NCBI GenBank assembly: GCA_041659445.1
Contig: JBAZYG010000002.1
Span: forward strand, 120,001-152,000
Source: Candidatus Saccharimonadota bacterium
GTDB lineage: Archaea; Nanobdellota; Nanobdellia; Pacearchaeales; GW2011-AR1
Direction of reading: 5' to 3'
DNA: 32,000 nucleotides
The notes under the pieces are model-generated. The model had not been told where the DNA came from. It ran no database searches and worked only from the letters and a program-made list of their open reading frames with translations. The position numbers and the translations under genes were made by a program. How positions within the stretch are numbered: position 1 is the first letter of the stretch; each line of letters begins with the position of its first letter. Positions 5,703 to 22,515 of the stretch are shown here, piece by piece.

Positions 5703-5720
5703 CCTATCCTTGAGGATAGG
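5703..5720 (+). other. Perfect 7-bp stem hairpin cctatcc-ttga-ggatagg downstream of the target gene stop
   Basis: Direct reading. A related tatcc-aaa-ggata hairpin occurs at 5938-5952, just after the TR. Confidence 0.4.
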
Positions 5721-5790
5721 CCACAAGCTCTTTTATTAGTGGTTTCAAAAACCCAGTGAAATTCAACTTTGACAATTTGTAATTAAAATA

Positions 5791-5798
5791 TTATAAAA
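5791..5798 (+). promoter_or_regulatory. Candidate TATA box (ttataaaa) for the TR-RT transcript
   Basis: It lies ~54 nt upstream of the TR start, which would place the TSS near 5820 so that the TR and RT are co-transcribed. Confidence 0.3.
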
Positions 5799-5851
5799 TT
5801 GAAGAAGCGGTGGCTAACTTTAAGTTAGATAATTGGTAAAAGGGCTAAATA

Positions 5852-5941
5852 TTGTCTAGGGTTTATGCGAATAATAGTCAGAATGTGAATTCTAACAATG
5901 ACAATTTGCATAATTCCAATGATAATGGCTGAATGACTTAT
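5852..5941 (+). repeat. DGR template repeat (TR), noncoding
   Basis: Cognate of the VR. In the VR reading frame it encodes Asn-rich LSRVYANNSQNVNSNNDNLHNSNDNG and then a TGA stop, so it is not itself part of an ORF. It ends 20 nt before the RT ATG. Confidence 0.8.
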
Positions 5942-5960
5942 CCAAAGGATAGATAATAAT

Positions 5961-8381: not shown

Positions 8382-8882
8382 CTACTTCTTTTCTTTTTTC
8401 TTTGTGTGTTTTGGATTCTCAACAATCGGAGTTTCAATAATCTTTTTTTCTTTAACAATGATTTCTCCACCTGCTTTTTTTACTTTTTCAATAGCAGAAT
8501 TTGAAGCCTCGTATGCTCTGATTATTAATTTGTGTTTAACTTCTCCATCACCTAAAATTTTGTATCCTTCAAGATTAATTTCATAAACATCTTTATTTTT
8601 TTTACCATATTTTTCAAGATTAAGTTGGATTGTTCTTAAATTAATTCTTAATCTTTTATCTCTTTCAGTTTTTTTACTTGTTATTCCTTGTTTTCCAAAA
8701 TAATCATTTCCATATAATTTTGTTATTAATGTTTTTTTGTGGTCTGCTCTTTTACCGCTTCCAGCCATTCCAACTCCACCCTTATGTCCAGATTTCTTTC
8801 TTTTCTTTCTAGCTCCGCCTCCATGAGTTCCCATTTTTCTTCCATGCATTCTTGATTTTTTATTTCTTTTTTTAATTTTCAT
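8382..8882 (-). CDS. rpl15: 50S ribosomal protein L15 (uL15)
   Basis: Gly/Lys-rich N-terminus MHGRKMGTHGGGARKKRKKSGHKGGVGMAGSGKR; operon position. Confidence 0.9.
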   Translation of the reverse strand: MKIKKRNKKSRMHGRKMGTHGGGARKKRKKSGHKGGVGMAGSGKRADHKKTLITKLYGNDYFGKQGITSKKTERDKRLRINLRTIQLNLEKYGKKNKDVYEINLEGYKILGDGEVKHKLIIRAYEASNSAIEKVKKAGGEIIVKEKKIIETPIVENPKHTKKKEKK

Positions 8883-9282
8883 TTTTCTCCAATAAATCTA
8901 TTCCATCAAAAATAGGTTTAAATCTTTTTTCTATTCCTTGTTTATTCTTTTTACTTGCTAAAAAGCTGATATCAATTTGAATTCCAACAGGCCAAAAAGG
9001 ACCATCATCTAGTTCTCCATACCAAAGCATATTTCCTTCATTTGATATTTTTAAATAATAATTATTTTTTTCATCTCTCACACCAAATACTATTTTTTTC
9101 TCTTGGTTTTTAAAAATTTTATGGTTTCCTAAAAACACTCCTAAATATTCTTTTTCTGAACCCAATGAAGTTAAAGGATAAACTTCTCCAACTTTAGTTG
9201 GATTAACATAAATTATTCTTTTTTTTTCTGTAGAATCAAAGTTTAAATTTTCCCAAGCAATTTTTTTCAAATTTTTATCCAT
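8872..9282 (-). CDS. Orphan ORF e inserted between L30 and L15
   Basis: 136 aa with no recognisable family. The start is 1 nt after the L30 stop (TAAAATG junction) and the 3' end overlaps the L15 start by 11 nt. The first 7 codons are identical to those of S5. Confidence 0.55.
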   Translation of the reverse strand: MDKNLKKIAWENLNFDSTEKKRIIYVNPTKVGEVYPLTSLGSEKEYLGVFLGNHKIFKNQEKKIVFGVRDEKNNYYLKISNEGNMLWYGELDDGPFWPVGIQIDISFLASKKNKQGIEKRFKPIFDGIDLLEKNEN

Positions 9283-9283
9283 T

Positions 9284-9646
9284 TTATAACATTCTCCTTA
9301 TTAAATCATTAATTTTTTCTTTGTGGTTTCCTAAGACTCCGCCTTCTTCGACGTGCAATTTTGCTTTTATTCCTTTTCTAGGTGGATGTAATCTGAAAAA
9401 TGGTTTTAATTTTCCAGAAATGTCTTTTTTTCCTCTTTTGTTTACTAATTCTTTATATGTTTCATCGTCGATATTTCCATAAGCTACAAAACTATGAACT
9501 CTTTTTATCATTCCAATATTTTCTTTTGTATCTTCAATTACAACACAAGCATATTTTTTTCTTAATCTTAATCTATCTAAAGTATCAATTATTTCTTTTT
9601 TTATTCCTATTTTTCCTTTGATTCTTATAATTGCAATTTTACTCAT
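9284..9646 (-). CDS. rpl30: 50S ribosomal protein L30 (uL30)
   Basis: IAIIRIKGKIGIKKEIIDTLDRLRLRKKYACVV pattern; ATGA overlap with the S5 stop. Confidence 0.85.
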   Translation of the reverse strand: MSKIAIIRIKGKIGIKKEIIDTLDRLRLRKKYACVVIEDTKENIGMIKRVHSFVAYGNIDDETYKELVNKRGKKDISGKLKPFFRLHPPRKGIKAKLHVEEGGVLGNHKEKINDLIRRML

Positions 9647-10542
9647 TTTTTATCTTCTCCTATTTTTTTATTTGTTTTTTTAAGTGCATTAAAGCATGCT
9701 TTTACTGAGTTAAATGAAGTTCTTTGTTTACCGAAACTTTTACTATAAATATCTTTTATTCCTGCTAATTTTAAAACTTTCTTTAATTCTCCTGCAACAA
9801 CTAATCCAGTTCCTTGAGGAGCAGGTGTTAAAGTAATACTTACGCTTCCAGCTTTTCCTTCGACTTTGAAAGGAATTGAATGAGGATCATTACAAGAGCA
9901 ATCAAAACTTGAACAGGCTCTTTGAACTTTTATTAAATTTAATTTTGCTTTTCTTATAGCTTTATCTCTTGCAGGAAGAGTTTCAGTTGCTTTTCCAATT
10001 CCAAATCCAATATGTCCGTTTTCATCACCAACAACTGCCATTGCAGAGAAAGTTAATTTATTTCCTTCTTGAGTTTTTCTTTGAGTTTGCCTCCAAGCTC
10101 TTCTTTTACCGCCTCCAAATTTTCCTTTAGCTTGTCCAATTGAAATTAAATCTGTTTTCACGTCGATTAAATAATCAACAATTTTTTCTTCAAGTATTTT
10201 TTTATTGCTGTCAAGGATTTCGTCAATGTTTTTTATTTTACCATTTTTCACATCTCTTCCAAGTTGTGTTTTTGGTTGCCAAGATTCAATAATTGATGAT
10301 TTTGGGTCTTTGAATGTGATTTTCTCTTCTTCTTTTGCTGATTTTGAAAGAGCTTTTTTATTTTCTTCATCTATTTTTTTAAGAAGCATTTCTTCTTGTT
10401 CAAGTTCAATTTCTTTTTCTTTTTTAATTTTTATTTCAATCATTTCTTTTGTAGTTTTTTCAATTTCTTTAGCTTTTTTCAGTGCTTTTTCTTCAGAAAC
10501 AGTTCCATGAGCATCTATAGTTTTTTTCAAATTTTTATCCAT
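9643..10542 (-). CDS. rps5: 30S ribosomal protein S5 (uS5) with a ~85-aa Lys/Glu-rich N-terminal extension
   Basis: The conserved core runs from WQPKTQLGRDVKNGKI through GHIGFGIGKA and GTGLVVAGELKKVLKLAGIKD. At 299 aa it is longer than the ~210-240 aa I recall as typical for archaea. Confidence 0.9.
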   Translation of the reverse strand: MDKNLKKTIDAHGTVSEEKALKKAKEIEKTTKEMIEIKIKKEKEIELEQEEMLLKKIDEENKKALSKSAKEEEKITFKDPKSSIIESWQPKTQLGRDVKNGKIKNIDEILDSNKKILEEKIVDYLIDVKTDLISIGQAKGKFGGGKRRAWRQTQRKTQEGNKLTFSAMAVVGDENGHIGFGIGKATETLPARDKAIRKAKLNLIKVQRACSSFDCSCNDPHSIPFKVEGKAGSVSITLTPAPQGTGLVVAGELKKVLKLAGIKDIYSKSFGKQRTSFNSVKACFNALKKTNKKIGEDKK

Positions 10543-10543
10543 T

Positions 10544-11038
10544 TTATTTTTTATTTATTTTTAATTTAATTTCATTGAATTTGGTTGAGAAATCTTTTTT
10601 TAATTTTTTTCCGACGATTCTTTCTTCTTCTGGGAAAGTTTTTTCATCATGTTTTATTTTTAAACCAGAATCAACTAGTCCTTTTAAAAAACTATGAACT
10701 TTTGTTTTATGTTCTGTTCTAATCATTCCAAAATCAATTATTGGAGTTTCCAATTTTTTTTCTAATATTTTCTTTCCCATTAAATAACCTGTTAAGTAAC
10801 AAGCAGTAATTGATTTTAAACTTCCTTGATAATCCTCGGGCCATCCATATTTTAAAAGTTCTTTCGAGGTAATTCCAAAAATAGCTTTATCTTTTGCTTC
10901 TTGACTTACAACGTACTGTGAAATAATATATCTATTTGTTTTTCTGAAGACAACTCTAGGTTTCTCACTTTTTAAAAGACTTATTCTTTTTTTGTAGTCT
11001 GTTTTAAATTCTCTTCTTCGTATTTTTTGTATTCTCAT
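10544..11038 (-). CDS. rpl18: 50S ribosomal protein L18 (uL18)
   Basis: RRREFKTDYKKRISLLKSEKPRVVFRKTNRYIISQYV; operon position. Confidence 0.9.
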   Translation of the reverse strand: MRIQKIRRREFKTDYKKRISLLKSEKPRVVFRKTNRYIISQYVVSQEAKDKAIFGITSKELLKYGWPEDYQGSLKSITACYLTGYLMGKKILEKKLETPIIDFGMIRTEHKTKVHSFLKGLVDSGLKIKHDEKTFPEEERIVGKKLKKDFSTKFNEIKLKINKK

Positions 11039-11043
11039 TTTAG

Positions 11044-11448
11044 TTATTTATTTAATTTTAATATTTGTTTTAAATGTGCTTTGCTTTTGAATTCTTTGTT
11101 TCTTATTTTTTTTCTAAGTTCTTTAATTTCTTCTTTAGATAATTTTCCTTGTGTTCTTAATTCTTTTAAATAATTTCTTAATTTTCTAGTTATGATAATA
11201 TAGTCTCTTTTTCGAGTATTTACTTTTTTTCTAATTTTTCCTGTTGATCTTTTCTTCTTCTTTTTTATTATTCTTTTTCTTCCTTTGACGTTTTTAATAA
11301 TTATAGCACCATCTTTTGTTAAATCTCGAATATCTTGTTTAGTTATAGCTTCTTTTATTTCATCTAATCTTGCATTTATAAATACAATTCTTTCTTTACC
11401 AACATTCAATGTTCTTGCTGCAAGATTTTTCTTTTTACTTAAGTCCAT
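11044..11448 (-). CDS. rpl19e: 50S ribosomal protein L19e (eL19)
   Basis: KKNLAARTLNVGKERIVFINARLDEIKEAITKQDIRDL followed by a basic tail. Confidence 0.9.
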   Translation of the reverse strand: MDLSKKKNLAARTLNVGKERIVFINARLDEIKEAITKQDIRDLTKDGAIIIKNVKGRKRIIKKKKKRSTGKIRKKVNTRKRDYIIITRKLRNYLKELRTQGKLSKEEIKELRKKIRNKEFKSKAHLKQILKLNK

Positions 11449-11830
11449 TTTGATTTTTTTTCATATTTAATTTTTTTAAAAATGATTCTGGATTAAATTT
11501 TGTGAAAAGCACTTTCATTTCAATTGCTTTTTTAGCAATTTCAATTTTCTTTTTTTTACCTATTTTTCCTAAAATTCCGATGCTATTTTTATTTAATTTT
11601 TTTAAATCTTGTAAATTATTAATTTTTACTGGTTTTTTATTTTGAATTGTTCCTCTTATATTTTTTTCTTTTGCATATCCAATACTTACAACAACAGGAT
11701 ATCCTTTTCTTTTCTCTCTCATTTTATTATCTCTTCCTGTTGGTCTTCTCCATTTCAACATTTTTTTTCTTCTTTTTCCAAATGTTGAAAATCGTTTACT
11801 ATCTCTTCTTAAAAATTTCTTTTTTGTCAT
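11435..11830 (-). CDS. rpl32e: 50S ribosomal protein L32e (eL32)
   Basis: FLRRDSKRFSTFGKRRKKMLKWRRPTGRDNKMR motif; operon position. Confidence 0.85.
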   Translation of the reverse strand: MTKKKFLRRDSKRFSTFGKRRKKMLKWRRPTGRDNKMREKRKGYPVVVSIGYAKEKNIRGTIQNKKPVKINNLQDLKKLNKNSIGILGKIGKKKKIEIAKKAIEMKVLFTKFNPESFLKKLNMKKNQNGLK

Positions 11831-11831
11831 T

Positions 11832-12374
11832 TTAAATTTCTCTTCCGTTTTTATTTATTAAGTAAATTCCATCTTGAAAAATTCTTATATCTCTTCCTCG
11901 AATTTTAGTAGCTCTTTCTAAATTTGCTGCAGCTTGACCAGCCTTTTCCTTATCAGTAGATTTAATTGTTATTGTTTCCTTGTCAATATTAAATTCCACG
12001 TCGTCAGGAATTTCTGTTTTTCTTTCAATTTTTTCACCAAGGAAATTTTTGATTATAATTTCTTTTCCGTTTTGTTTTACTGTAAATGGGAAATGTACAA
12101 AACAAATTTTTAATTTGTATTCGAATTTTTCTTGAACTCCCTTTATCATATTTTTAATGTGGGAGTGCAATGTATTAATTTGTTTTTTCTCTTTTTTCGT
12201 AGCTTTTAAATGCCAAATTTTTATTATACCATCTTTTATTTCAAATTTTAGTTTTCCAAAATTTAATTTTCTTCTGTTTTCTCCTTCTTTTCCTTTGACA
12301 ATTAAAATTTTATCTTCTAGTTTTACTTCAACATCTTCAGGTATTTTTATTTTTTGAAACATTTCCTTTTTCAT
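11832..12374 (-). CDS. rpl6: 50S ribosomal protein L6 (uL6)
   Basis: IKIPEDVEVKLEDKILIVKGKEGE repeat-domain pattern. The ORF-track start at 12413 is a TTG, so I chose the first ATG (MKKEMFQ); the ATG at 12362 is also possible. Confidence 0.85.
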   Translation of the reverse strand: MKKEMFQKIKIPEDVEVKLEDKILIVKGKEGENRRKLNFGKLKFEIKDGIIKIWHLKATKKEKKQINTLHSHIKNMIKGVQEKFEYKLKICFVHFPFTVKQNGKEIIIKNFLGEKIERKTEIPDDVEFNIDKETITIKSTDKEKAGQAAANLERATKIRGRDIRIFQDGIYLINKNGREI

Positions 12375-12440
12375 TTTATTTTTGTTGGTTTTTTGAAAAA
12401 TGAAATTTACCAAAATTTATTTTGAGTTTTTTCATTTTAG

Positions 12441-12821
12441 TTAATAAAAATAAGCAATAACACTTCCTCCTATTTTTTCTTCTTGAGCTTCTTCATGAGT
12501 CATTAAACCTTTGTTTGTTGAAATAATCACTGTACCTATTTTTCTAGAAGGAAGATATCTTCTTCTATATTTTTCAATTTGATCTTTATCTGCACTAAAT
12601 CTTGGTTTAACAGCCTTGCATTCAGATAATTCTCCAATTGTTATTTCCAATGATTTTTCTTTTGGATTTATTTTGTATCTTTTAATTGCATTTTTTTGTT
12701 TCATAATTTTTAAAATTTCAATTAATAAATTTGAAATCCTATTTATTTTGATTTCTTGTTTTCCAGATTTCTTTGCATTCTTTATCATGTTTAAAGCATC
12801 AGCTACTATATCTTGTGACAT
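12441..12821 (-). CDS. rps8: 30S ribosomal protein S8 (uS8)
   Basis: MSQDIVADALNMIKNAKKSGKQEIKI ... GGSVIAYFY. The start was moved to M36 of the track ORF, giving 126 aa and a TAAAATG junction with the upstream ORF d stop. Confidence 0.85.
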   Translation of the reverse strand: MSQDIVADALNMIKNAKKSGKQEIKINRISNLLIEILKIMKQKNAIKRYKINPKEKSLEITIGELSECKAVKPRFSADKDQIEKYRRRYLPSRKIGTVIISTNKGLMTHEEAQEEKIGGSVIAYFY

Positions 12822-12822
12822 T

Positions 12823-13164
12823 TTATTTTTCAAGTGCCTCCCTAATTTTCTCCAATCTTTCATCAAATCCTTGTTGCATTGGGTGATAAAAATCTTGATT
12901 ATAACTTTTAAGATCAATAGATTCATTTTTAAATATTAAATCATTTTCATAAACATACCATTCAGTAATTGTTCTATCTTGAGGATATTTAACATCGCTT
13001 GATAAGAAATAATAAATATTCTTATTTAATTCTAGATTAAATTCCTTTCTAAGATAAATAGTATTTCTTCCAGAACCCTCTAAAACATTTTTAACTTTTA
13101 TCAAAGTATTCTCTTTCAAATTATTTAATTCTTCTAAACTATTTACTTTTTTTATCTTTTCCAT
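12823..13164 (-). CDS. Orphan ORF d inserted between S14 and S8
   Basis: 113 aa from MEKIKKVNS (the ATG 1 nt after the S14 stop). The longer track ORF would overlap S14 by 71 nt. No recognisable family. Confidence 0.5.
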   Translation of the reverse strand: MEKIKKVNSLEELNNLKENTLIKVKNVLEGSGRNTIYLRKEFNLELNKNIYYFLSSDVKYPQDRTITEWYVYENDLIFKNESIDLKSYNQDFYHPMQQGFDERLEKIREALEK

Positions 13165-13165
13165 T

Positions 13166-13396
13166 TTATGAATATTTTTTGAAACCAATTTCTTCTGCAA
13201 TCTCTCTGAAACAATGTCTGCAAAGATTGATTCCATATGTTTTTATATGTGCTCCAAATCTTCCGCATCTTTCACATTTTCTTGCAGCAATTCCAGTTTT
13301 TCTTTCTTTTGGTTTGCAATGTTTTATGAATTTTTCTTTTATTTCTGGTTTTGAATCTAATTGCTTGAATACTTTTTTCCAATCACTTGCTGTCAT
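13166..13396 (-). CDS. rps14: 30S ribosomal protein S14 (uS14, zinc-ribbon type)
   Basis: CERCGRFGAHIKTYGINLCRHCFREIAEEIGFKKYS (CxxC...CxxC). About 20 aa longer at the N-terminus than I recall for archaeal S14. Confidence 0.85.
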   Translation of the reverse strand: MTASDWKKVFKQLDSKPEIKEKFIKHCKPKERKTGIAARKCERCGRFGAHIKTYGINLCRHCFREIAEEIGFKKYS

Positions 13397-13893
13397 TTGA
13401 ATTTTGTTTGGAAGTTTTCTTCCATAAATTTAATTATTTCTTCTTTTGGAATCATTTGTTTTTTTGGAAATCTTCCTTTCTTTATTTTTCTTAATTTTAC
13501 TCTTCTTCCAGTTCTTTTAAATGATACTGTTACATCAAAACCCATAATTCCAATGTCTCTTTGATATTCCATTCCTGGAATTTCAATATATTCTTTTATT
13601 CCAAAAGAAAAATTATTTTCACTTATTTGTTTTTTATGTAAATTATTCTCAATTGCAGCAAGTAATTTTCTTAAAATATCTTCTGGATTTTTTCTTATTG
13701 TTACAACAGCTCCTATTTCTAAATTTGGTTTTACTCCTAGTGTTGGAATTCTTTTTCTTGAAGTTGTTTTTTTTGGTTTTCTTTTTGTTAGTAATTCTAA
13801 TAATTTGTATCCTTTTGTTAAGGGGTCTCCAATACCACTAACGCTCAAAACAACTTTCTCAATTTTTAATTTTCTCATTATATTTTCTGTCAT
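13393..13893 (-). CDS. rpl5: 50S ribosomal protein L5 (uL5)
   Basis: KIEKVVLSVSGIG ... GMEYQRDIGIMGFDVTVSF pattern. Confidence 0.9.
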   Translation of the reverse strand: MTENIMRKLKIEKVVLSVSGIGDPLTKGYKLLELLTKRKPKKTTSRKRIPTLGVKPNLEIGAVVTIRKNPEDILRKLLAAIENNLHKKQISENNFSFGIKEYIEIPGMEYQRDIGIMGFDVTVSFKRTGRRVKLRKIKKGRFPKKQMIPKEEIIKFMEENFQTKFK

Positions 13894-13894
13894 T

Positions 13895-14536
13895 TTATTC
13901 AGTCACCATTAATTGTTTAATTAAAATATGATATGAAATTTTATTTACTTCTATTTCTGCCATTTTTAGTTTATTGTCTATTTTTTTAATTACTCCTTTT
14001 TTTCCTGCATGTTTTCCACCAATTACAAAAACATTTGAATTTTCTTTAAATGGAATGCATTTTTCAATTTTGTTTTTTTCAAAGTCAATTAATACAGAAT
14101 CATTTACTTTACATTTTAATTCTGTTAAAAAATTTCTACCATCAAATAAATTTAATTGTGTCTTTTTTTTCTTTAGTATCTTTTTATCATCAATTTTTGA
14201 GATTTTTTTTGATTTTTCAGAATCTTTGATTTCTTCGAGGTCAAATTTTCCGAATTCTGATAAAATTAATTTATAATTTTTCTTAGATGGAACAATTGTT
14301 AAAGTGTCAAAAATTCTTAACATTTCTTTTTCTCCTTTTACTGGTTTGTTACATAACAATATTTCTTTTTTATGTATAGCTTTTTTTACTTCAGATCTAT
14401 TTTTTGCGATTTTCAAAACATCTCTTATTGCAATTAAAACAGGTAATCCTTTGGAATCTGATTTTAATACTAATTTTGTTCCCTTTCTCTTTATTGGCCA
14501 CGCTTTTGGTGCATTATTTCTTTTTAGGTGTTTCAT
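13895..14536 (-). CDS. rps4e: 30S ribosomal protein S4e (eS4)
   Basis: MKHLKRNNAPKAWPIKRKGTKLVLKS ... IGGKHAGKKGVIKKI (KOW-like). Confidence 0.9.
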   Translation of the reverse strand: MKHLKRNNAPKAWPIKRKGTKLVLKSDSKGLPVLIAIRDVLKIAKNRSEVKKAIHKKEILLCNKPVKGEKEMLRIFDTLTIVPSKKNYKLILSEFGKFDLEEIKDSEKSKKISKIDDKKILKKKKTQLNLFDGRNFLTELKCKVNDSVLIDFEKNKIEKCIPFKENSNVFVIGGKHAGKKGVIKKIDNKLKMAEIEVNKISYHILIKQLMVTE

Positions 14537-14949
14537 TTTTTATCCTCGTTGATTTTTTCTTTATTTTTTGAATTTGCTGAAATTTTAGCTAATCTTTTTT
14601 TGTCGTCTAAATTTAATTCAATAATTTGTAAGTTTGAAGGTCTTAATGGGATATTCACTTTTGAACCATCTTGTTTTTTTGTTTGAATTCCATCAATATA
14701 AACTTTCAATCTTTTAATTTTTATTTCATTTACTTTTCCTGTTTTTCCTTTGTGTTTTCCTTTTAAAATTTTGATTTTATCTCCTTTTCTCAAAACAACA
14801 TTTCTTTTTTTATATTTTTTTCTTAATTCTTTTGAAAGAGTGGTACTTAAAAATTTCTTTTTCAAGTGTATTGGGGCTTTTGCTAAGTATTTTCTTTTCT
14901 TTCTTGGTTGTTTACTTGAGTTCCAGTTTTTACTAAATTCTTTTTTCAT
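14533..14949 (-). CDS. rpl24: 50S ribosomal protein L24 (uL24)
   Basis: KOW motif LRKGDKIKILKGKHKGKTGKVNEI; operon position. Confidence 0.9.
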   Translation of the reverse strand: MKKEFSKNWNSSKQPRKKRKYLAKAPIHLKKKFLSTTLSKELRKKYKKRNVVLRKGDKIKILKGKHKGKTGKVNEIKIKRLKVYIDGIQTKKQDGSKVNIPLRPSNLQIIELNLDDKKRLAKISANSKNKEKINEDKK

Positions 14950-14950
14950 T

Positions 14951-15220
14951 TTAATTTATGATATTTCCAATTTTAGGAGGGTGATATTTAATACTATCAA
15001 AATATTTCTTATCAAATTCTTCTAATTCTTCTTTTGTAAAGAGGTTTATACTTTTTATATCTCCCATTAGATTGCAATGTCTTATAGTATATTCTGAAAC
15101 TGATGTTGGATTTTCTTTTTTTATTTCTTTTATAACATCTAAACTTGCGTTTATTAATGTTTCAAGTCCTTCTTTCACGATTTTCTTTTTTTCTTCAGTC
15201 AAATTTAATTTATATTCCAT
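14951..15220 (-). CDS. Orphan ORF c inserted between L14 and L24
   Basis: 89 aa, predicted helical, no recognisable family. TAAAATG junctions at both ends. Confidence 0.5.
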   Translation of the reverse strand: MEYKLNLTEEKKKIVKEGLETLINASLDVIKEIKKENPTSVSEYTIRHCNLMGDIKSINLFTKEELEEFDKKYFDSIKYHPPKIGNIIN

Positions 15221-15221
15221 T

Positions 15222-15623
15222 TTAATATACTATTGATGCCAATTTTGCAACAGAAGGCCATCTTTCTAAAATTTCTTTTGCAATTGGTCCTTTAATTTGT
15301 GTTCCCTTTGGGTTCCCTTTTTCATCTTTTAAAATTGCAACAGCGTTGTCCTCGAATGCAATTCTTTCTCCGTTTTTTCTTCTCCAAGGTTTTCTTTGTC
15401 TCAAGACTACAGCGTCGAAAACTTTCCCTTTCATATCTGGTACTCCTTTTTTAACAGATACTTTTACCCAATCTGCAATCTTTGCACTCATTTGTCTTGC
15501 TTTTTTTCCTTTTCCTTTTTTAACAGAGACTATTCTTACAACTTTTGCTCCACTATTATCTGCTGCGAGCACGACTGCTCCTAAATTTAATCCTGCAGTT
15601 GCTCTTGCACTAATTGCTTTCAT
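15222..15623 (-). CDS. rpl14: 50S ribosomal protein L14 (uL14)
   Basis: LNLGAVVLAADNSGAKVVRIVSVKKG ... AVVLRQRKPWRRKNGERIAFEDNA. Confidence 0.95.
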   Translation of the reverse strand: MKAISARATAGLNLGAVVLAADNSGAKVVRIVSVKKGKGKKARQMSAKIADWVKVSVKKGVPDMKGKVFDAVVLRQRKPWRRKNGERIAFEDNAVAILKDEKGNPKGTQIKGPIAKEILERWPSVAKLASIVY

Positions 15624-15679
15624 TCAAAATTACCTCCATGTCTTTTTTGGATGAATGAAAATCTTTGATTTGCTTTCAT
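15620..15679 (-). other. 19-codon relay mini-ORF (MKANQRFSFIQKRHGGNFE) bridging ORF b and L14
   Basis: Its ATG overlaps the ORF b TGA (ATGA) and its TGA overlaps the L14 ATG (ATGA), so it spans the whole 52-nt gap and contains the L14 SD. Confidence 0.35.
15633..15638 (-). promoter_or_regulatory. Shine-Dalgarno GGAGGT, 9 nt upstream of the L14 ATG
   Basis: The minus strand reads CATGGAGGTAATTTTGAATGAAAGC. Confidence 0.55.
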
Positions 15680-15978
15680 TTTTCTTCTCCTGATTTTATT
15701 TTTTCTAATTCAAGGGGGTATCCTGAAACATCCACATTCATATCTACCAGTTTTTGTCTAATCGAATTGTAAATTGTAGAGGCCATACTAGAATATTTTT
15801 CCATATAAGATTCATTTCCCATAACTGAAAAAATTATCTTTTTAACAAAATAATCTTTTCCTACTAAATCTAAAAGATTCAACCCTTGCTTTTCTGTAAA
15901 TCCTTCATCTAAGAGAGCTAAAAATTTTAATTGGAATTCATCTGTCTTTTTTTCTAATGTTTCATAAAGTTCTTTCAT
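15676..15978 (-). CDS. Orphan ORF b inserted between S17 and L14
   Basis: 100 aa, helical, no recognisable family. ATGA overlap with the S17 stop. Its last ~12 codons are a near copy of the S17 3' end. Confidence 0.5.
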   Translation of the reverse strand: MKELYETLEKKTDEFQLKFLALLDEGFTEKQGLNLLDLVGKDYFVKKIIFSVMGNESYMEKYSSMASTIYNSIRQKLVDMNVDVSGYPLELEKIKSGEEK

Positions 15979-16310
15979 TTTTTATCTTCTCCTGAATTTA
16001 TTTTTTCTAAAACTACAAAGTGAATTATTTTACTTAATGGACGGCATTCTCTAATTCTAATTAAATCTCCCACATTAATTTCTTTTTCCATACATCTTGG
16101 AAGTCTTGCATGAATTTTTGTTTTGTATCTTGCATATCTTTCATATTTTTTAACATAATTCATTCTTTCAAATTCAATTGCAATTCTTTTTTCATGTTTG
16201 CTTATAACAGTTCCTTTGAATATTCTTCCTCGTAATTTCAAGTTTCCATGAATAGGGCAATCCTTATCATTGCAAGCGCTTTCGATTTTTTTTATTTCTT
16301 GTTTTTTCAT
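15975..16310 (-). CDS. rps17: 30S ribosomal protein S17 (uS17)
   Basis: CNDKDCPIHGNLKLRGRIFKGTVIS ... VGDLIRIRECRPLSKIIHFVV. Confidence 0.9.
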   Translation of the reverse strand: MKKQEIKKIESACNDKDCPIHGNLKLRGRIFKGTVISKHEKRIAIEFERMNYVKKYERYARYKTKIHARLPRCMEKEINVGDLIRIRECRPLSKIIHFVVLEKINSGEDKK

Positions 16311-16311
16311 T

Positions 16312-16608
16312 TTAAATTATTGATTCCTCTTCAAATCCCAATTTAATTAATAATTCTTTTATTTTTTTGCTGTGGTCTCCTTGAAGTTCTATTTCATTGT
16401 CTTTAACAGTTCCTCCACATGCTAATTCGTTTTTCAATGATTTTGCTATTTTTTTTATGTTTACTTCTTTATCAAATCCGCTAACTATTGTTACCAATTT
16501 TCCATATCTTTTTTTGTCAGTTCTAACGCTAATTCTTTGCGAACTTTTTACAATTTGTTCGCAAACGCATGCTTGTATAGGTAAACCGCATTTAGGACAA
16601 ATTTCCAT
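16312..16608 (-). CDS. sui1: Translation initiation factor aIF1 / SUI1
   Basis: N-terminal CPKCGLPIQACVC knuckle plus the SUI1 core KRYGKLVTIVSGF ... LKNELACGGTVKDNEIELQGDH. Confidence 0.85.
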   Translation of the reverse strand: MEICPKCGLPIQACVCEQIVKSSQRISVRTDKKRYGKLVTIVSGFDKEVNIKKIAKSLKNELACGGTVKDNEIELQGDHSKKIKELLIKLGFEEESII

Positions 16609-16797
16609 TTACTTTTTTCCCTCCTTAATTGTTAATATTCTTGCAATCATTTTTTTGATTTCTTTTGATTTTGAAGAGCCTCCAGATTTTGAGCTAGCAG
16701 TTTTTGATTTCATCAATTCAAGTTTTAATTCTTGAATTTTATTTTCTCTTTCGGACTTAGGTATTTTTGTTATTTCTTTATATTTTAATTTATTCAT
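16609..16797 (-). CDS. rpl29: 50S ribosomal protein L29 (uL29)
   Basis: 62 aa with ERENKIQELKLELMKSK helical pattern; position between S3 and SUI1. Confidence 0.8.
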   Translation of the reverse strand: MNKLKYKEITKIPKSERENKIQELKLELMKSKTASSKSGGSSKSKEIKKMIARILTIKEGKK

Positions 16798-17473
16798 TTT
16801 TCTTTCTCCTATTTACTTTTTTAATTTCATCTTTTTTATTTTGATATTCTTCTTTATTTTGAGCCAATTTTTTTATTAGTTCGTCGTTAATATTTAATTT
16901 ATCTTTTAATATTGCATCTGGTTTTAAAATGCTTACTTTAACTCCGACTGTTCCAGGTTTTGTTTGTGCTGTAGCTTGAGCTCTGTCGACGACTTTTGCG
17001 CTGTCTCCTGTTTTTTTCAAGTAACCTTGTGAGAATCTCCATGTTCTTGCTCTTGAACTAGGAAGTTTTCCACTTAATCTTATTTCTGTGCCAAGTGCTT
17101 TCGCGTCCATAATTCTTTGAAGATATTTATAAGCTAAGATCTTAAATTTTAATGGTCCAAATCTTTCTAATCCTAATGCAATTTCATCTGCAACTAGTTG
17201 TGCATCTAAATCTGGAATTTTTATTTCGTCAATTTCAATATGTGGGTTTTCTAATTTGAATTCTCTTTTCAAAATATTTGTTAATTCTTCAATTTTTTCT
17301 CCGCCTCTTCCAATAACTAAACCTGGTTTGTTTGTTGAAATAATTATTTTTTCTCCTATAGGTGTGTATTCAATTTTAACTTTGCTGACTTTTCCTTTTC
17401 CAATTTCATTTTTTATTCTTTCTTTTATTGAAAATTCTTCTTTCTTAAATTTTACAGTATTTCTTTCTTCCAT
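16790..17473 (-). CDS. rps3: 30S ribosomal protein S3 (uS3)
   Basis: KH domain KPGLVIGRGGEKIEELTNILKREF and C-terminal domain RTWRFSQGYLKKTGD. Confidence 0.9.
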   Translation of the reverse strand: MEERNTVKFKKEEFSIKERIKNEIGKGKVSKVKIEYTPIGEKIIISTNKPGLVIGRGGEKIEELTNILKREFKLENPHIEIDEIKIPDLDAQLVADEIALGLERFGPLKFKILAYKYLQRIMDAKALGTEIRLSGKLPSSRARTWRFSQGYLKKTGDSAKVVDRAQATAQTKPGTVGVKVSILKPDAILKDKLNINDELIKKLAQNKEEYQNKKDEIKKVNRRKKNE

Positions 17474-17481
17474 TTTAATAT

Positions 17482-18111
17482 TTATTTTTTACCCTCGGTT
17501 TTTTTAATTTTTTTATTTTTCAAAAATGTTTTTTCATATGCAACGATTTTTAAATGAGTTCTCTTTTTTCTAACAGCTCCAAATCTTCCATATGGTTGTT
17601 GTCCTTTGTTTGCAATTGCTTCTTTTATAATTGGTTCACTTATTTCATTTTGATGTGCGTTTCCAAGTAATCCTTTTAATATTTTAATAAAATAAGTTGA
17701 TGCTCTAACAGGATATCTTCCAGACATCATTTTTCCTTTTCTGTGGGGAATTTCGCCTTTCATTGGAACTGCTTTTTTTAATTTAGTAACTTCTTCAAGT
17801 TCATTAATTGCTTTTTGAATTGGTTTATTTTTTATGAATTTACATATTGCCATTGCGTATTTTGTTGAAATTGGAACATTATTTGAATTAACAATTGCAA
17901 AATTTTTCTTTATTTTTGGAGTTGTTTTTTTAATTTCAGTTTTTTTGTCTTCGGTTTTTTCAATATTTTTTATTGTTTTGTCTTCTACAATTTTTTCTTC
18001 TGTAATTTTATTTTCATTTTTCTTTATAGGAGCTTCTGCTTTTGCTACATTTCCTGAAATTTTCTGAGATTTTTTCTCTAATTTTGTCGGAGCGTATTGT
18101 TTTTCTGTCAT
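17482..18111 (-). CDS. rpl22: 50S ribosomal protein L22 (uL22) with a ~60-70-aa Lys/Thr/Glu-rich N-terminal extension
   Basis: Core ISTKYAMAICKFIKNKPIQKAINELEEV ... HRKGKMMSGRYPVRAS. No internal Met would give a normal-length protein. Confidence 0.85.
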   Translation of the reverse strand: MTEKQYAPTKLEKKSQKISGNVAKAEAPIKKNENKITEEKIVEDKTIKNIEKTEDKKTEIKKTTPKIKKNFAIVNSNNVPISTKYAMAICKFIKNKPIQKAINELEEVTKLKKAVPMKGEIPHRKGKMMSGRYPVRASTYFIKILKGLLGNAHQNEISEPIIKEAIANKGQQPYGRFGAVRKKRTHLKIVAYEKTFLKNKKIKKTEGKK

Positions 18112-18113
18112 TT

Positions 18114-18515
18114 TTATTTTTTAGCTTTGTGTTTGCTTCCTTTTGTTGCACCAACGCCAGCTTTACTATGTTTAATTTTTCCTCTTGTAAGAGCAAATTC
18201 TCCTAATCTGTGTCCAAGCATTTCTCCAGTCACATCAAAAGGAACAAATTGATTTCCATTGTAAACTGAAATTTTCATTCCAACAAGTTCTGGAACAATA
18301 ATTATATCTCTATTGTGTGTTCGAATTTTTTTTCCTTTTCTATCTTTTTCTTTAAGTCTATTAACAAATTTTTCAATTTCTTGGAATTGTCTTATTGCTG
18401 TTCTTCTTTCTCTTGCATTTAAAAATTCTGCAAATTCCCGAATACTTAAAGTTTTCAATTCTTCAATTGTTTTCCCTCGATATGTAAATTGTTTTTTTGA
18501 TGTTTGTTGTTCCAT
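18114..18515 (-). CDS. rps19: 30S ribosomal protein S19 (uS19)
   Basis: RTHNRDIIIVPELVGMKISVYNGNQFVPFDVTGEMLGHRLGEFALTR. Confidence 0.9.
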   Translation of the reverse strand: MEQQTSKKQFTYRGKTIEELKTLSIREFAEFLNARERRTAIRQFQEIEKFVNRLKEKDRKGKKIRTHNRDIIIVPELVGMKISVYNGNQFVPFDVTGEMLGHRLGEFALTRGKIKHSKAGVGATKGSKHKAKK

Positions 18516-18516
18516 T

Positions 18517-19215
18517 TTACTTTCTTTTACCTGTTCTTCTTGGTCTTACTAATCCAACTCTTCTTCCTGGTGGAGCATTTCTCTTAGCAATCTTGCTCTT
18601 AGGATTCTTTCCTCTACCAGAACCAAATGGATGATCAATTGCATTCATTTTTACAGCAGATGTTCTTGGCCATAATTTACTTTTTGTTTTTTTAATATGA
18701 AATTTTTTTCCTGCTTTAACAACTGGTTTTTCTAATCTGCCGTCTCCTGCAATAGTGCCTATAATTGCTCGACATTCAGGGTTAAAGCTTTTTTCTTTTT
18801 TAGAAGGCATAACTAAAAATATTTCATTTCCTATAATCCTGCTAACTGTTGCAAAATTTCCTCCTGCTTTTATGAATTTTCCACCATCTCCAGGTCGGGA
18901 TTCAATGCAGTAAACTTTTGTTTTAACAGGAATATCTTTTAATTTTAAAATATTTCCAAATTTTATTTCTTTACTATCAAAATTAATTTTATCTCCTTCA
19001 ACTAATCCTTTAAATGCAGGAACAAAAAATATTCCATCTGAGTATCTTATTTTTGCTAAAGGGCATGTGTGTGCTCCTGAATCAATTAATTTTGTTATTC
19101 TTCCTTCTCCAGATAATCTTGATGGATAAATTAATCTATATTTGAATGCTTTTTTGCTTACTCTATATGTTGAACTTCCTTTTCCTCTAGCTTGTGAAAT
19201 TATTCTTTTTCCCAT
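18517..19215 (-). CDS. rpl2: 50S ribosomal protein L2 (uL2)
   Basis: GNFATVSRIIGNE ... MNAIDHPFGSGRGKNPKSK ... PGRRVGL. Confidence 0.95.
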   Translation of the reverse strand: MGKRIISQARGKGSSTYRVSKKAFKYRLIYPSRLSGEGRITKLIDSGAHTCPLAKIRYSDGIFFVPAFKGLVEGDKINFDSKEIKFGNILKLKDIPVKTKVYCIESRPGDGGKFIKAGGNFATVSRIIGNEIFLVMPSKKEKSFNPECRAIIGTIAGDGRLEKPVVKAGKKFHIKKTKSKLWPRTSAVKMNAIDHPFGSGRGKNPKSKIAKRNAPPGRRVGLVRPRRTGKRK

Positions 19216-19457
19216 TACATCATTCCTAACTTTGTAGCAATATCAATTGCCAAAGTGTTTTTATTTAATTTAGCGTAAACATATTTTTTGTTATTTCTGA
19301 TTAAAGTTCTCATTTTTTCAATTTTAATATTCAATAATTTTTCAAGTTCTTTTTTAATTTCAGTTTTTGTTAAAATCATTGGAGCTTCGAATGTTAAAAG
19401 GTTATCTCTTTCAATACCCATTACTGCTTTTTCTGTTACAACTGGTTTTAAACTCAT
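19215..19457 (-). CDS. rpl23: 50S ribosomal protein L23 (uL23)
   Basis: 80 aa, LLTFEAPMILTKTEIKKELEKLLNIKIEKMRTL; position between L4 and L2. Confidence 0.85.
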   Translation of the reverse strand: MSLKPVVTEKAVMGIERDNLLTFEAPMILTKTEIKKELEKLLNIKIEKMRTLIRNNKKYVYAKLNKNTLAIDIATKLGMM

Positions 19458-20263
19458 TTTTTCTCTCCTGAAAATTTATTTTCTAAATCCTTGATTGCTT
19501 TTTCAGTATAAATTGTTAATCTTCCTGGTTTTCCTTTTGCTAAATCCAAAATATTCAATTCTTTAACTTGCTTAACGTCGAATGCAGTTGTCTTTAATTT
19601 TTCATCATTTCCTAAAACCAAAAGTAATCCTGCATTTTTTTTGTATTTTCTTCCTCTTAATTTTCCAATTCCACTTCTTATTTCTTTTTTCTGAATTGAA
19701 ACTTCAAATAATTCTGTTCCAAGGATTTTTTTAAAAGAAGTTATCAATTCCCTGATTTTTAATTCAGTGATTTTAGATTCAACAATTAAAGGAAGTTTTG
19801 TAATTTCTTTGTTTCTTAATCTTTCATATTTTTGTTTTAAATATTTTTCATTAGCAGTTGCACTTAATGCAGATTTTAATCCGAGCAATAATTCTTTTTT
19901 GTTTATTTTTAAATCTAGAATTCTTGAAATTGCTTTTGGAGGATGTGCTCTTCTTCCGCCACGAGTATTTGGAACTCCAGCAGCAACCCAATTAAATTGA
20001 GTACCTTTTCTTGACATTGTTTTTCTTGGAACTCTTGACATTCCTCTTCCATATTGACTTTTCCAAGCGTGTCTTTTATGGACAATTTTTCCTGAAACAG
20101 AAGATTGATTTCCTGCACTTGGGTTTGAACCGTAAGGATGTTGAATTTTTCTTATTTCAAGAATTTTATAAATAATATCTTCTCGAACTTTTTCAGTAAA
20201 GAATTTAGGTAATTCAATTTCTTTTCCAGATTTTCCGTCGATTGTTAGTATTTTTGCTTTCAT
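19454..20263 (-). CDS. rpl4: 50S ribosomal protein L4 (uL4)
   Basis: HAWKSQYGRGMSRVPRK ... GGRRAHPPK pattern. Confidence 0.9.
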   Translation of the reverse strand: MKAKILTIDGKSGKEIELPKFFTEKVREDIIYKILEIRKIQHPYGSNPSAGNQSSVSGKIVHKRHAWKSQYGRGMSRVPRKTMSRKGTQFNWVAAGVPNTRGGRRAHPPKAISRILDLKINKKELLLGLKSALSATANEKYLKQKYERLRNKEITKLPLIVESKITELKIRELITSFKKILGTELFEVSIQKKEIRSGIGKLRGRKYKKNAGLLLVLGNDEKLKTTAFDVKQVKELNILDLAKGKPGRLTIYTEKAIKDLENKFSGEKK

Positions 20264-20610
20264 CTTAAAATTTCCTCTGTTTGTTTTAATAATAAATTAT
20301 CTAAACTTATTTTTCCTTCTTCTGCTAATTCTCTAAATTCTGGAATGTATTTTTCCACTATTTCTTCAGGAACTATTGTTGGACGAGTTTCATAATTTGC
20401 ATTTATGAATTTTTTTAGATAGAAGTTTAATTGTTTTTTTTGTTCCATTATACATTCTCTTTTCTCTTCTGGAGTGTAATTAAATGTAGAGATCTCTCTT
20501 TTAGCCATTGAAAGTGTCATGGAAATTAATTCTTCAAATCTATTCACTTCTTTTTTCATATGCTCTTCCATGCCTTCTTCTAGTTTTTGTTGATTTATTT
20601 GATATTTCAT
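20260..20610 (-). CDS. Orphan ORF a inserted between L3 and L4
   Basis: 116 aa, helical and acidic, no recognisable family. ATGA overlaps with both the L3 stop and the L4 start. Confidence 0.5.
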   Translation of the reverse strand: MKYQINQQKLEEGMEEHMKKEVNRFEELISMTLSMAKREISTFNYTPEEKRECIMEQKKQLNFYLKKFINANYETRPTIVPEEIVEKYIPEFRELAEEGKISLDNLLLKQTEEILR

Positions 20611-22514: not shown

Positions 22515-22515
22515 T

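What the first reader, a model, noticed from the sequence alone, without database searches (positions are those of the whole stretch)
8872..20610. Five unrelated orphan ORFs inserted between universally adjacent ribosomal-protein genes
The gene pairs L3|L4, S17|L14, L14|L24, S14|S8 and L30|L15 are normally contiguous in archaea and bacteria. Here each pair is separated by an ORF of 89-136 aa: a 20260-20610, b 15676-15978, c 14951-15220, d 12823-13164 and e 8872-9282. The five show no similarity to each other or to any family I recognise. All are on the operon strand and are joined to their neighbours by ATGA overlaps or TAA-A-ATG junctions, so they should be co-translated stoichiometrically with ribosomal proteins. 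They could be lineage-specific ribosomal or ribosome-associated proteins, assembly factors, or selfish hitchhikers exploiting the strongest operon in the cell.
Basis: partly seen in the sequence, partly recalled or inferred. Interest (0 to 1): 0.7.

Follow-up and report, generated by a model that had tools for sequence, protein, structure and literature searches.

The report
Small genes wedged into ribosomal operon
Five small, previously unnamed protein genes really do sit between ribosomal-protein genes in this tiny archaeon. Related archaea show the same thing at the same preferred junctions, with a large, fast-changing set of such genes whose function is unknown.

Summary
The window holds the S10-spc ribosomal-protein operon of a Candidatus Pacearchaeota archaeon on the minus strand. 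Five ORFs of 116, 100, 89, 113 and 136 aa split L3|L4, S17|L14, L14|L24, S14|S8 and L30|L15.

They are not chance ORFs (P below 5e-5 each). Their composition is native, they are soluble, they are unrelated to each other, and no curated family, solved structure or viral contig matches them.

They are not true orphans, however. Families a, d and e have small sets of homologues at 35-52% identity at the same junction in other metagenomes. Models of d and e are confident and match no known fold. ORF c is a weak member of an L14|L24 family. ORF b has one homologue, in a different context.

The pattern is clade-wide. In 152 related loci, 277 of 2348 junctions (12%) are occupied, nearly always by one same-strand, translationally coupled ORF. 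The same junctions recur as hot spots. Most inserts are singletons, some families sit at different junctions, and one relative keeps only a 38-aa relic of d.

Best reading: these are dispensable accessory genes that ride the operon for expression, not core ribosomal proteins. A ribosome-associated role is not excluded.

The parts
20260..20610 (-). ORF a, 116 aa, pI 5.2. It lies between L3 and L4 with an ATGA overlap at both ends. NCBI calls it hypothetical protein WC812_04345.
   Evidence: ORF list and junctions. Cluster look-up. Homologues P0009, P0011, P0014 and P0025 at 41-52% identity. These are encoded between L3 and L4 in L087, L088 and L174. Alignment A4. L002 (L3|L4) and L045 (L14|L24) are also members.
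15676..15978 (-). ORF b, 100 aa, pI 4.9. It lies between S17 and L14, with an ATGA overlap with S17. Its 3' end repeats the S17 3' end (TCAGGAGAAGA...AAAAATGA).
   Evidence: Its only homologue is P0022 (37% identity, E 1.8e-7 against 1.84 billion proteins). P0022 sits on a 522-nt contig in a tightly coupled but non-S17 context.
15624..15675 (-). 52-nt spacer between b and L14, with its own GGAGGT Shine-Dalgarno-like motif. It is the only sizeable non-coding gap next to any of the five ORFs.
14951..15220 (-). ORF c, 89 aa, pI 6.1. It lies between L14 and L24 with TAA-A-ATG junctions on both sides. Its 3' end resembles the L14 3' end.
   Evidence: No homologue in the exhaustive search. It scores 20.7 bits (E 4.5e-6 in a 268-sequence set) against an HMM built without it from small L14|L24 proteins of related loci. 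Alignment A6. Flank repeat, p about 0.003.
12823..13164 (-). ORF d, 113 aa, pI 5.5. It lies between S14 and S8 with TAA-A-ATG on both sides. Its last codons carry the GGGAGG motif in front of S8.
   Evidence: Homologues P0008, P0015, P0016, P0023 and P0024 at 35-50% identity. P0008 and P0016 are encoded directly after S14, at the S14|S8 position, in L086 and L173. A 38-aa relic remains in L092. AlphaFold2 pLDDT 87, pTM 0.81. No PDB match.
8872..9282 (-). ORF e, 136 aa, pI 8.6. It lies between L30 and L15, with TAA-A-ATG upstream and an 11-nt overlap with L15.
   Evidence: Nine homologous representative clusters at 32-50% identity. Alignment A2, with 8 invariant and 8 nearly invariant columns. 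Directly downstream of L30 in L084, L085, L171 and L172 (L15 follows where the contig continues), and in the same gene arrangement on the unannotated short contig L170. Between L30 and L15 in L026, L131 and L152. AlphaFold2 pLDDT 88.9, pTM 0.84. No PDB or BFVD match.
8382..21566 (-). Host operon, in order: L3, a, L4, L23, L2, S19, L22, S3, L29, SUI1, S17, b, L14, c, L24, S4e, L5, S14, d, S8, L6, L32e, L19e, L18, S5, L30, e, L15. SecY follows at 6950-8341.
   Evidence: The same arrangement occurs in three other samples at 99.98-100% nucleotide identity.

Best explanation
The five ORFs are genuine small soluble proteins of a Pacearchaeota archaeon. Their genes have been intercalated, one per junction, into the S10-spc ribosomal-protein operon.

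They belong to a clade-wide, fast-turnover pool of accessory genes. These genes occupy a few preferred junctions, are read from the operon transcript, and start by termination-reinitiation coupling (ATGA or TAA-N-ATG). Their output is therefore tied to ribosome synthesis.

They are dispensable passengers rather than core ribosomal proteins. Some (a, d, e) have been kept at one junction long enough to be under purifying selection and to have a selected, probably binding, function. Others (b, c) are near-orphans.

Shown: that they are coding, their conservation and synteny, their patchy distribution, loss, relocation between junctions, and the coupling grammar.
Inferred: co-expression, dispensability in this organism, and the mode of insertion. 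A short duplication of the upstream gene's 3' end is the only trace of insertion.
For: Real genes:
- The frames are open with P at most 5e-5.
- GC, GC3 and codon adaptation index are native.
- a, d and e have homologues at 35-52% identity where the flanking ribosomal proteins are 43-83% identical. Apparent dN is 1.4-2.8 times that of the flanks.
- Alignments show invariant aromatic, Gly and Pro columns.
- AlphaFold2 models of e and d are confident from only 10 and 6 sequences.

Positional conservation:
- e homologues lie directly after L30, at the L30|L15 position, in every context examined.
- d homologues lie directly after S14.
- a homologues lie between L3 and L4.

Accessory rather than core:
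- In 59 complete related operons, 0-11 junctions are occupied (mean 2.6), and 14 operons have none.
- L001, about as close to the window as the loci that carry d, has no insert at 17 junctions.
- L092 keeps only a 38-aa relic of d.
- 268 inserts fall into 195 clusters, of which 165 are singletons.
- 13 of 30 multi-member clusters span more than one junction. For example, a 153-161-aa family sits at L3|L4 and at L19e|L18, and a small hydrophobic family sits at five junctions.
- Ordinary enzymes sit at such junctions in relatives: RNase_T-like, MazG, HD, NUDIX, GNAT, HAD.
- The pI of inserts is bimodal like a normal proteome, and a-d are acidic against pI 9.6-11.3 for the ribosomal proteins.

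Coupling and insertion:
- 171 of 263 inserts start at -4 or +1 relative to the upstream stop.
- 255 of 277 occupied gaps are filled by one same-strand ORF, and only 11 by an opposite-strand ORF.
- The 3' end of the insert resembles the 3' end of the upstream gene more than in permuted pairs (z = 4.2). Cases include a, b and c here.
Against: - No expression data exist, so co-transcription and translation are inferred.
- Long retention of a, d and e beside the same ribosomal protein is also what a specific partner of that protein would show.
- Hot-spot junctions are reused by unrelated families, which a purely neutral passenger model does not explain.
- dS is saturated in this AT-rich genome, so dN/dS values (0.4-0.6) are only upper bounds.
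- I did not examine whole genomes, so I cannot say whether these families also occur outside ribosomal operons.
- The membership of c rests on about 21 bits.
Confidence: 0.58

Rival explanations
1. They are lineage-specific ribosome-associated proteins. Each would bind, chaperone or help assemble the ribosomal protein encoded next to it, or join the ribosome as an extra subunit. Translational coupling would deliver it in step with its client.
For: - Families a, d and e stay beside the same ribosomal-protein gene across deep divergence. For e, L30 itself is only 43% identical.
- The ORFs are tightly coupled to their neighbours.
- a-d are acidic next to very basic neighbours.
- The conserved columns of e and d are structural rather than catalytic, which fits binding modules.
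- From my own knowledge: unknown ORFs in the Methanococcus spc operon later proved to be S4e, L32e and L19e, and eukaryotes have dedicated acidic chaperones for single ribosomal proteins (Acl4, Yar1, Tsr2, Sqt1, Rrb1).
Against: - Presence is patchy among equally related genomes, and d has decayed to a relic in L092.
- Unrelated families occupy the same junction, and one family can occupy several junctions.
- No sequence or fold match to any chain in the PDB, which includes archaeal ribosomes and pre-ribosomes.
- Across all inserts there is no acidic bias.
- Enzymes with no obvious ribosomal role share these junctions.
Confidence: 0.27
2. They are selfish mobile cassettes that target junctions of the most highly expressed operon and spread between genomes and junctions.
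For: - Thirteen families occur at more than one junction.
- Diversity is extreme and distribution is patchy.
- A short duplication of the upstream 3' end flanks some inserts, including a, b and c.
- The homologue of b lies in a different context.
Against: - No transposase, integrase or homing endonuclease is present in or beside any insert, and Pfam finds nothing.
- No relatives in 2.9 million viral contigs.
- Base composition and codon use are native.
- 77 of 88 homologous pairs share the same junction, as vertical descent predicts.
- a, d and e are positionally stable.
- No benefit to the element itself is evident.
Confidence: 0.1
3. They are spacer sequence that happens to be open, or over-called ORFs, or an assembly artefact.
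For: - c has no homologue in the exhaustive search, and b has only one.
- There is no expression evidence.
Against: - Open-frame probability is at most 5e-5 for each ORF in a 23-27% GC sequence where stops are frequent.
- Each ORF fills its gap exactly.
- a, d and e are conserved with invariant columns, and d and e also give confident folds.
- An identical arrangement was assembled independently in three other samples.
Confidence: 0.03

Closest known systems
Non-ribosomal genes natively embedded in the archaeal S10-spc cluster (aIF1/SUI1, RNase P Rpp29, SecY, adenylate kinase), and the Hsp20 gene added to that cluster in some Thor- and Odinarchaeota (PMC10833476)
   Same: They are protein genes that are not ribosomal proteins, sit inside the conserved cluster on the operon strand, and are presumably expressed with it. 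The Hsp20 case is likewise a lineage-restricted addition, which its authors call unusual.
   Different: Those genes belong to known families and are single additions at fixed places. Here five unrelated unnamed families sit in one operon, and up to 11 in relatives. There are about 195 sequence clusters across the clade, with recurrent hot-spot junctions, gain, loss and relocation.
Archaea/eukaryote-specific ribosomal proteins first seen as unknown ORFs in the Methanococcus spc operon (S4e, L32e, L19e). This comparison rests on my own knowledge.
   Same: They were small unknown ORFs intercalated between universal ribosomal-protein genes and translationally coupled to them.
   Different: Those proteins are basic, present throughout the archaea, and found in ribosome structures. 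a-d are acidic, all five are patchy within one clade, and none matches a chain of any solved ribosome.
Dedicated ribosomal-protein chaperones of eukaryotes (Acl4 for L4, Rrb1 for L3, Yar1 for S3, Tsr2 for S26, Sqt1 for L10). This comparison rests on my own knowledge.
   Same: This is a possible functional analogy: an acidic partner made together with one basic ribosomal protein.
   Different: There is no sequence or fold similarity. Those chaperones are repeat-domain proteins encoded elsewhere in the genome. Binding was not tested here.
Gene cassettes of integrons and other promoterless accessory genes that depend on a host promoter. This comparison rests on my own knowledge.
   Same: They are small, highly diverse, mostly orphan, promoterless genes inserted in one orientation and expressed from an upstream promoter, with rapid turnover.
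   Different: No integrase or attC-like repeats were found. The inserts are scattered singly among essential genes rather than arrayed, and coupling is at the level of translation.

Membership tests
Known ribosomal proteins (universal or archaeal/eukaryotic families) | Sequence homology to a ribosomal-protein family | tested here: not met
   Pfam, NCBIfam and PDB sequence or profile searches gave nothing significant for a-e or for families a, d and e.
Known ribosomal proteins (universal or archaeal/eukaryotic families) | Fold shared with a chain of a solved ribosome or pre-ribosome | tested here: not met
Known ribosomal proteins (universal or archaeal/eukaryotic families) | Basic, RNA-binding composition | tested here: not met
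   a-d have pI 4.9-6.1 and e has pI 8.6. All 23 ribosomal proteins of the operon have pI 9.6-11.3.
Known ribosomal proteins (universal or archaeal/eukaryotic families) | Present throughout the lineage | tested here: not met
   There was no tblastn hit for a-e in the 80 species-level relatives. Each family has only 1-9 representative clusters among 1.84 billion proteins.
Known ribosomal proteins (universal or archaeal/eukaryotic families) | Physically part of the ribosome | not testable with these tools
   This needs proteomics of purified ribosomes or cryo-EM.
Mobile genetic element or selfish cassette | Encodes or neighbours a mobility enzyme (transposase, integrase, homing endonuclease) | tested here: not met
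   No such domain is found in a-e or in the cross-junction families. The neighbours are ribosomal-protein genes.
Mobile genetic element or selfish cassette | Terminal repeats or target-site duplication | tested here: inconclusive
   The 3' end of the insert repeats the 3' end of the upstream gene in a, b, c and several relatives. The clade-wide excess is z = 4.2 on exact suffix length, but the repeat also contains the Shine-Dalgarno and stop/start signals, so function could explain it.
Mobile genetic element or selfish cassette | The same element found at different sites | tested here: met
   13 of 30 multi-member clusters span more than one junction. Among the window's own families this holds for a (L045, L14|L24), c (S8|L6, S17|L14) and b (a different operon).
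Mobile genetic element or selfish cassette | Carried by viruses or plasmids | tested here: not met
   There were no relatives in IMG/VR viral contigs for any of the five. Plasmid collections were not searched.
Anti-phage defence or toxin-antitoxin proteins | Match to a known defence or TA family | tested here: not met
   PADLOC gave no hit at E up to 0.1, and PHROGs gave only E of 0.005 or weaker.
Dedicated ribosomal-protein chaperones | Specific binding to one ribosomal protein | not testable with these tools
   No complex prediction or experiment was available. Only stable adjacency (families a, d, e) and acidic charge (a-d) are consistent with it.
Spurious or non-coding ORF | No conservation of the protein sequence and a frame open by chance | tested here: not met
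   For b and c the conservation evidence is thin.

The most novel reading that the evidence does not exclude
Pacearchaeota and Woesearchaeota may carry a large, rapidly turning-over repertoire of small proteins made in step with individual ribosomal proteins. These would act on the ribosome as dedicated chaperones, extra subunits or protectors against ribosome-targeting attack. Ribosome composition would then differ from species to species in these symbionts, and the five ORFs here would be one species' set.
Probability: 0.2. Interest if true: 0.85.

Novelty: new variant of a known kind. Interest (0 to 1): 0.6.

Why it matters
The S10-spc cluster is the textbook example of gene order frozen across bacteria and archaea. 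A single Hsp20 insertion in Asgard archaea was described as unusual (PMC10833476).

Here a whole clade of ultra-small archaea treats the junctions of that cluster as landing sites. About one junction in eight is occupied, by roughly 195 mostly orphan families. The hot spots are reproducible, and there are traces of gain, loss and relocation.

This yields a defined set of candidates for lineage-specific ribosome partners in organisms that cannot yet be cultured. These are families a, d and e, two of which have confident models matching no known fold. It also offers a natural system for asking how new genes gain expression in genomes with few promoters, and how essential operons tolerate insertion. 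I found no description of this pattern in the searchable literature.

Tried and rejected
- **Concatenated word-index search.** A search with a+b+c+d+e joined returned nothing, not even the proteins themselves, so it is uninformative. The same concatenation worked in the exhaustive HMMER search.
- **dN/dS from the same organism.** Copies in other samples are 99.98-100% identical, so they carry no signal. At 50% identity dS is saturated (pS about 0.5), so the ratios are only upper bounds.
- **Metagenome scans.** A scan with the e family found nothing. The second scan, with L14, gave no relative closer than 83%.
- **Hidden homology between the five.** Rejected.
- **The 99-aa L30|L15 ORF of L092 as a diverged e.** Only hhalign E 0.018, so not established.
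- **Gene fission of a neighbouring ribosomal protein.** Rejected. From my own knowledge, the neighbours have normal lengths; their Pfam matches cover most of each family model, except for L15.
- **Uniform acidic 'partner' composition across all inserts.** Rejected, because pI is bimodal.
- **Known RNA genes in the insert regions.** None found.
- **An apparent 10-member L14|L24 cluster.** It was partly an artefact of out-of-frame translation of the conserved L14 3' end. I corrected it by trimming starts.
- **Paralogues in the flanks outside the operon.** No true paralogue of the cross-junction and other multi-member clusters found. The apparent hits are contig-end pieces of operons, an L19e|L18-gap ORF in L017 with 125 in-operon hits that appears to be a mis-called operon gene, and the known b and e homologues on L089 and L084. 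The flanks are too short to settle the question.


Full report
**What is in the window.** The region is the archaeal S10-spc ribosomal-protein operon on the minus strand of a 27% GC genome. Pfam confirms L3, L4, S17, L14, L24, S14, S8, L30, L15 and SUI1. The remaining genes follow the usual archaeal order: L23, L2, S19, L22, S3, L29, S4e, L5, L6, L32e, L19e, L18, S5 and SecY. I named them from their translations, and Pfam marks on the same genes in L081-L083 agree for L23, L2, S19, L22, S3, L29 and S4e. NCBI holds the five ORFs as hypothetical proteins WC812_04345, 04295, 04285, 04260 and 04220 of a Candidatus Pacearchaeota archaeon, each a singleton cluster at 90% identity. The same arrangement was assembled in three other samples at 99.98-100% nucleotide identity, so it is not an assembly artefact.

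**Check of the observation.**
- a is bracketed by two ATGA overlaps.
- b overlaps S17 by ATGA, but a 52-nt spacer with its own GGAGGT follows it.
- c and d have TAA-A-ATG on both sides. For d this requires starting S8 at ATG 12821, as its homologue does in L092.
- e has TAA-A-ATG upstream and overlaps L15 by 11 nt.

In this AT-rich sequence the other five frames of each ORF hold 1-20 stops. At most one of 20000 shuffles per ORF stayed open. The five share no similarity. They have no transmembrane segment. GC, GC3 and codon adaptation index are native. They match nothing significant in Pfam, NCBIfam, PHROGs, PADLOC or Rfam.

**They are not all orphans.** I ran an exhaustive HMMER search of the five proteins, concatenated, against 1.84 billion representative proteins. 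It found:
- four homologues of a (41-52% identity);
- five homologues of d (35-50% identity);
- nine homologues of e (32-50% identity);
- one homologue of b (37% identity);
- none of c.

Looking up where these homologues are encoded gave the same position each time.
- e relatives lie directly after L30 in L084, L085, L171 and L172, with L15 following in L171 and L172 (and after a second small insert in L085). L170 is a short contig with the same three-gene arrangement, but its neighbours carry no Pfam call.
- d relatives lie directly after S14, with S8 next, in L086 and L173.
- a relatives lie between L3 and L4 in L087, L088 and L174.

A family HMM found further e members at L30|L15 in L026, L131 and L152. 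It found a members at L3|L4 in L002 and, notably, at L14|L24 in L045. The alignments show invariant and nearly invariant aromatic, glycine and proline columns.

Where a, d and e are 36-52% identical, the flanking ribosomal proteins are 43-83% identical. Apparent dN is 0.36-0.43 (0.74 for the most distant e pair), against 0.13-0.27 for the flanks. Synonymous sites are saturated. AlphaFold2 gave confident models for e (pLDDT 88.9, pTM 0.84) and d (pLDDT 87, pTM 0.81) from only 10 and 6 sequences. Both have an N-terminal helix, an 8-9-stranded sheet region and a C-terminal helix. Neither model matches anything in the PDB or BFVD: best E values are 0.08-0.4 and TM is below 0.4. Sequence profiles find no PDB chain either.

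c scores 20.7 bits against an HMM built without it from 73-87-aa helical proteins at L14|L24 in related loci. That family also has a member at S8|L6 and a weak hit at S17|L14. I regard this membership as probable, not proven. The single homologue of b sits on a 522-nt contig. It is tightly coupled to its neighbours, but the upstream gene is not S17.

**The clade-wide pattern.** I fetched related operons with L14 from species-level genomes and from metagenomes. This gave 152 non-redundant loci, all Pacearchaeota, Woesearchaeota or Nanoarchaeota by their record titles. None carries a-e at tblastn E of 1e-3, apart from a fragment of d.

Even so, 277 of 2348 covered junctions (11.8%) hold more than 150 nt. 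In 255 of these one same-strand ORF fills the gap, and in only 11 is the best ORF on the other strand.

Occupancy is strongly uneven:

| Junction | Occupied |
|---|---|
| L30\|L15 | 48% |
| L3\|L4 | 29% |
| L4\|L23 | 26% |
| S17\|L14 | 23% |
| L14\|L24 | 22% |
| S8\|L6 | 17% |
| S14\|S8 | 12% |
| L29\|SUI1, S4e\|L5, L32e\|L19e | 0-2% |

The window's five junctions are all among the frequently used ones. Among 59 complete operons, 45 have at least one insert. The mean is 2.6 and the maximum is 11.

After trimming starts, the inserts have a median length of 102 aa. Of 263 inserts, 171 start at -4 (ATGA) or +1 (TAA-N-ATG) relative to the upstream stop. With the window's five added, the 268 proteins form 195 clusters at phmmer E of 1e-3, and 165 are singletons. 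Their pI distribution is bimodal, like an ordinary proteome. A minority have known domains. An RNase_T-like exonuclease recurs at L4|L23, MazG occurs at L30|L15 and once at L32e|L19e, and there are single cases of HD, NUDIX, GNAT, HAD, B3_4 and metallo-beta-lactamase.

**Turnover.** Homologous pairs mostly share a junction: 77 of 88, where 7% would be expected by chance. This points to vertical descent. However, 13 of 30 multi-member clusters span more than one junction. I verified several against the flanking ribosomal-protein hits.
- A 153-161-aa family lies at L3|L4 in L009 and at L19e|L18 in L035 and L166.
- A small hydrophobic family with a DGxGDLxSGxHHYLSSR motif lies at S8|L6, L24|S4e, S5|L30, S4e|L5 and L14|L24.

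None of the families tested has a Pfam match.

Loss is visible too. L092 is the closest long relative, with L14 83% identical. Its S14|S8 spacer holds a 38-aa ORF that matches the first 32 or so residues of d. It keeps the TAA-A-ATG start and the G-rich motif before S8, but the rest of the gene is deleted. L001 is about as close to the window as the loci that carry d, and it has no insert at 17 junctions.

**A possible trace of how inserts arrive.** In a, b and c the last 10-25 nt of the insert repeat the last nucleotides of the upstream ribosomal-protein gene.
- a: TTTAAGATGA.
- b: TCAGGAGAAGA...AAAAATGA, with one 3-nt gap.
- c: AAAATTGG...ATTAA, p about 0.003.

Across 252 inserts, the exact common suffix with the upstream gene is longer than in permuted pairs: mean 1.31 against 1.03 nt, z = 4.2. 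Striking cases are L129 (20 of 21 positions), L028, L120 and L049. This segment holds the Shine-Dalgarno-like motif and the stop/start overlap. The repeat could therefore be a junction duplication made at insertion, or a functional requirement. In b the repeat is 52 nt from L14, which has its own motif, and this favours duplication. I treat this as suggestive only.

**Interpretation.** The five ORFs are real genes, and three of them have been under purifying selection at a fixed junction for a long time. Set against the patchy presence, the relic, the relocation, the diversity and the ordinary enzymes at the same junctions, the most economical reading is this: the ribosomal operon of these small-genome archaea is a permissive and favoured site for accessory genes. 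Such genes gain transcription and coupled translation there.

The alternative is that each is a partner of its neighbouring ribosomal protein. The stable adjacency of a, d and e and the acidity of a-d keep that reading alive. Nothing tested here adds further support. There is no similarity to any ribosomal or assembly protein in the PDB, and binding could not be tested.

A selfish-cassette reading lacks any mobility gene or viral carrier. Chance ORFs are excluded.

**Comparison with what is known.** Non-ribosomal genes inside the cluster are known: SUI1 is present here, and Rpp29, SecY and Adk are others. An Hsp20 insertion in some Asgard archaea was reported as an unusual event in a highly conserved cluster. 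Five full-text searches, and term look-ups inside three of the retrieved papers, found no description of multiple orphan inserts or of junction hot spots in Pacearchaeota or Woesearchaeota. That library is incomplete, so a prior report cannot be excluded.

I rate this a new variant of a known kind. Accessory genes inside the ribosomal cluster are known, but not at this density, diversity or turnover.

Noticed in passing
window 4809-6953 (+ strand), between SecY (6950-8341, -) and the EMC3-like gene (4132-4698, -): This looks like a diversity-generating retroelement. A reverse transcriptase ORF lies at 5961-6953 (Pfam RVT_1). An 80-nt repeat at 5852-5931 lies next to it and is 91% identical to 5451-5530, at the 3' end of ORF 4809-5678. 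Five of the seven mismatches are A in the RT-proximal copy. An Rfam RT-16 RNA lies at 5703-5853. In relative L171, SecY is followed directly by the EMC3-like and prefoldin genes, so this cassette is itself an insertion in conserved gene order.
   Followed up: partly
window 21672-24967 (- strand), just upstream of L3: An N6/N4 DNA methylase (24134-24967), a HATPase_c_3 protein (22516-24141, 541 aa) and an unnamed 289-aa ORF (21672-22541) precede the operon. Relative L092 has the methylase about 700 nt from L3 without the other two genes. This may be a restriction- or defence-like module.
   Followed up: partly
L092:11795-11908: A 38-aa ORF in the S14|S8 spacer matches the N-terminus of d. It is a deletion relic that keeps the coupled start and the G-rich motif before S8.
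   Followed up: yes
L029:9305-9610, L041:15351-15638, L111:4204-4446, L137:13071-13379, L014, L115, L153: A small hydrophobic protein family (73-101 aa after start trimming, motif DGxGDLxSGxHHYLSSR) sits at five different ribosomal-protein junctions in seven loci. It has no Pfam match.
   Followed up: partly
L002, L004, L011, L022, L036, L053, L055 and others, junction L4|L23: A 197-223-aa RNase_T-like (DEDD) exonuclease gene is inserted between L4 and L23 in 15 related loci. It is the largest family among the inserts.
   Followed up: partly
L085:3077-3316: A second insert at L30|L15, downstream of the e homologue. It is a 79-aa, very acidic protein with a CxC...CPxC zinc-ribbon-like motif.
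   Followed up: no
window 9643-10542 (S5) and 17482-18111 (L22): S5 (299 aa) and L22 (209 aa) carry long lysine/glutamate-rich N-terminal extensions ahead of the conserved domains. The tblastn matches to relatives start at about residue 80 of S5.
   Followed up: no
window 15975-16797: SUI1 (aIF1) lies between L29 and S17. No RNase P Rpp29 gene is present at the place where, from my own knowledge, most archaea have it.
   Followed up: no
L174:2541-2819 and 3054-3338; L087:2834-3100: Loci that carry a homologues also have further unnamed inserts at L4|L23 and L23|L2 (88-94 aa) that the window lacks.
   Followed up: no
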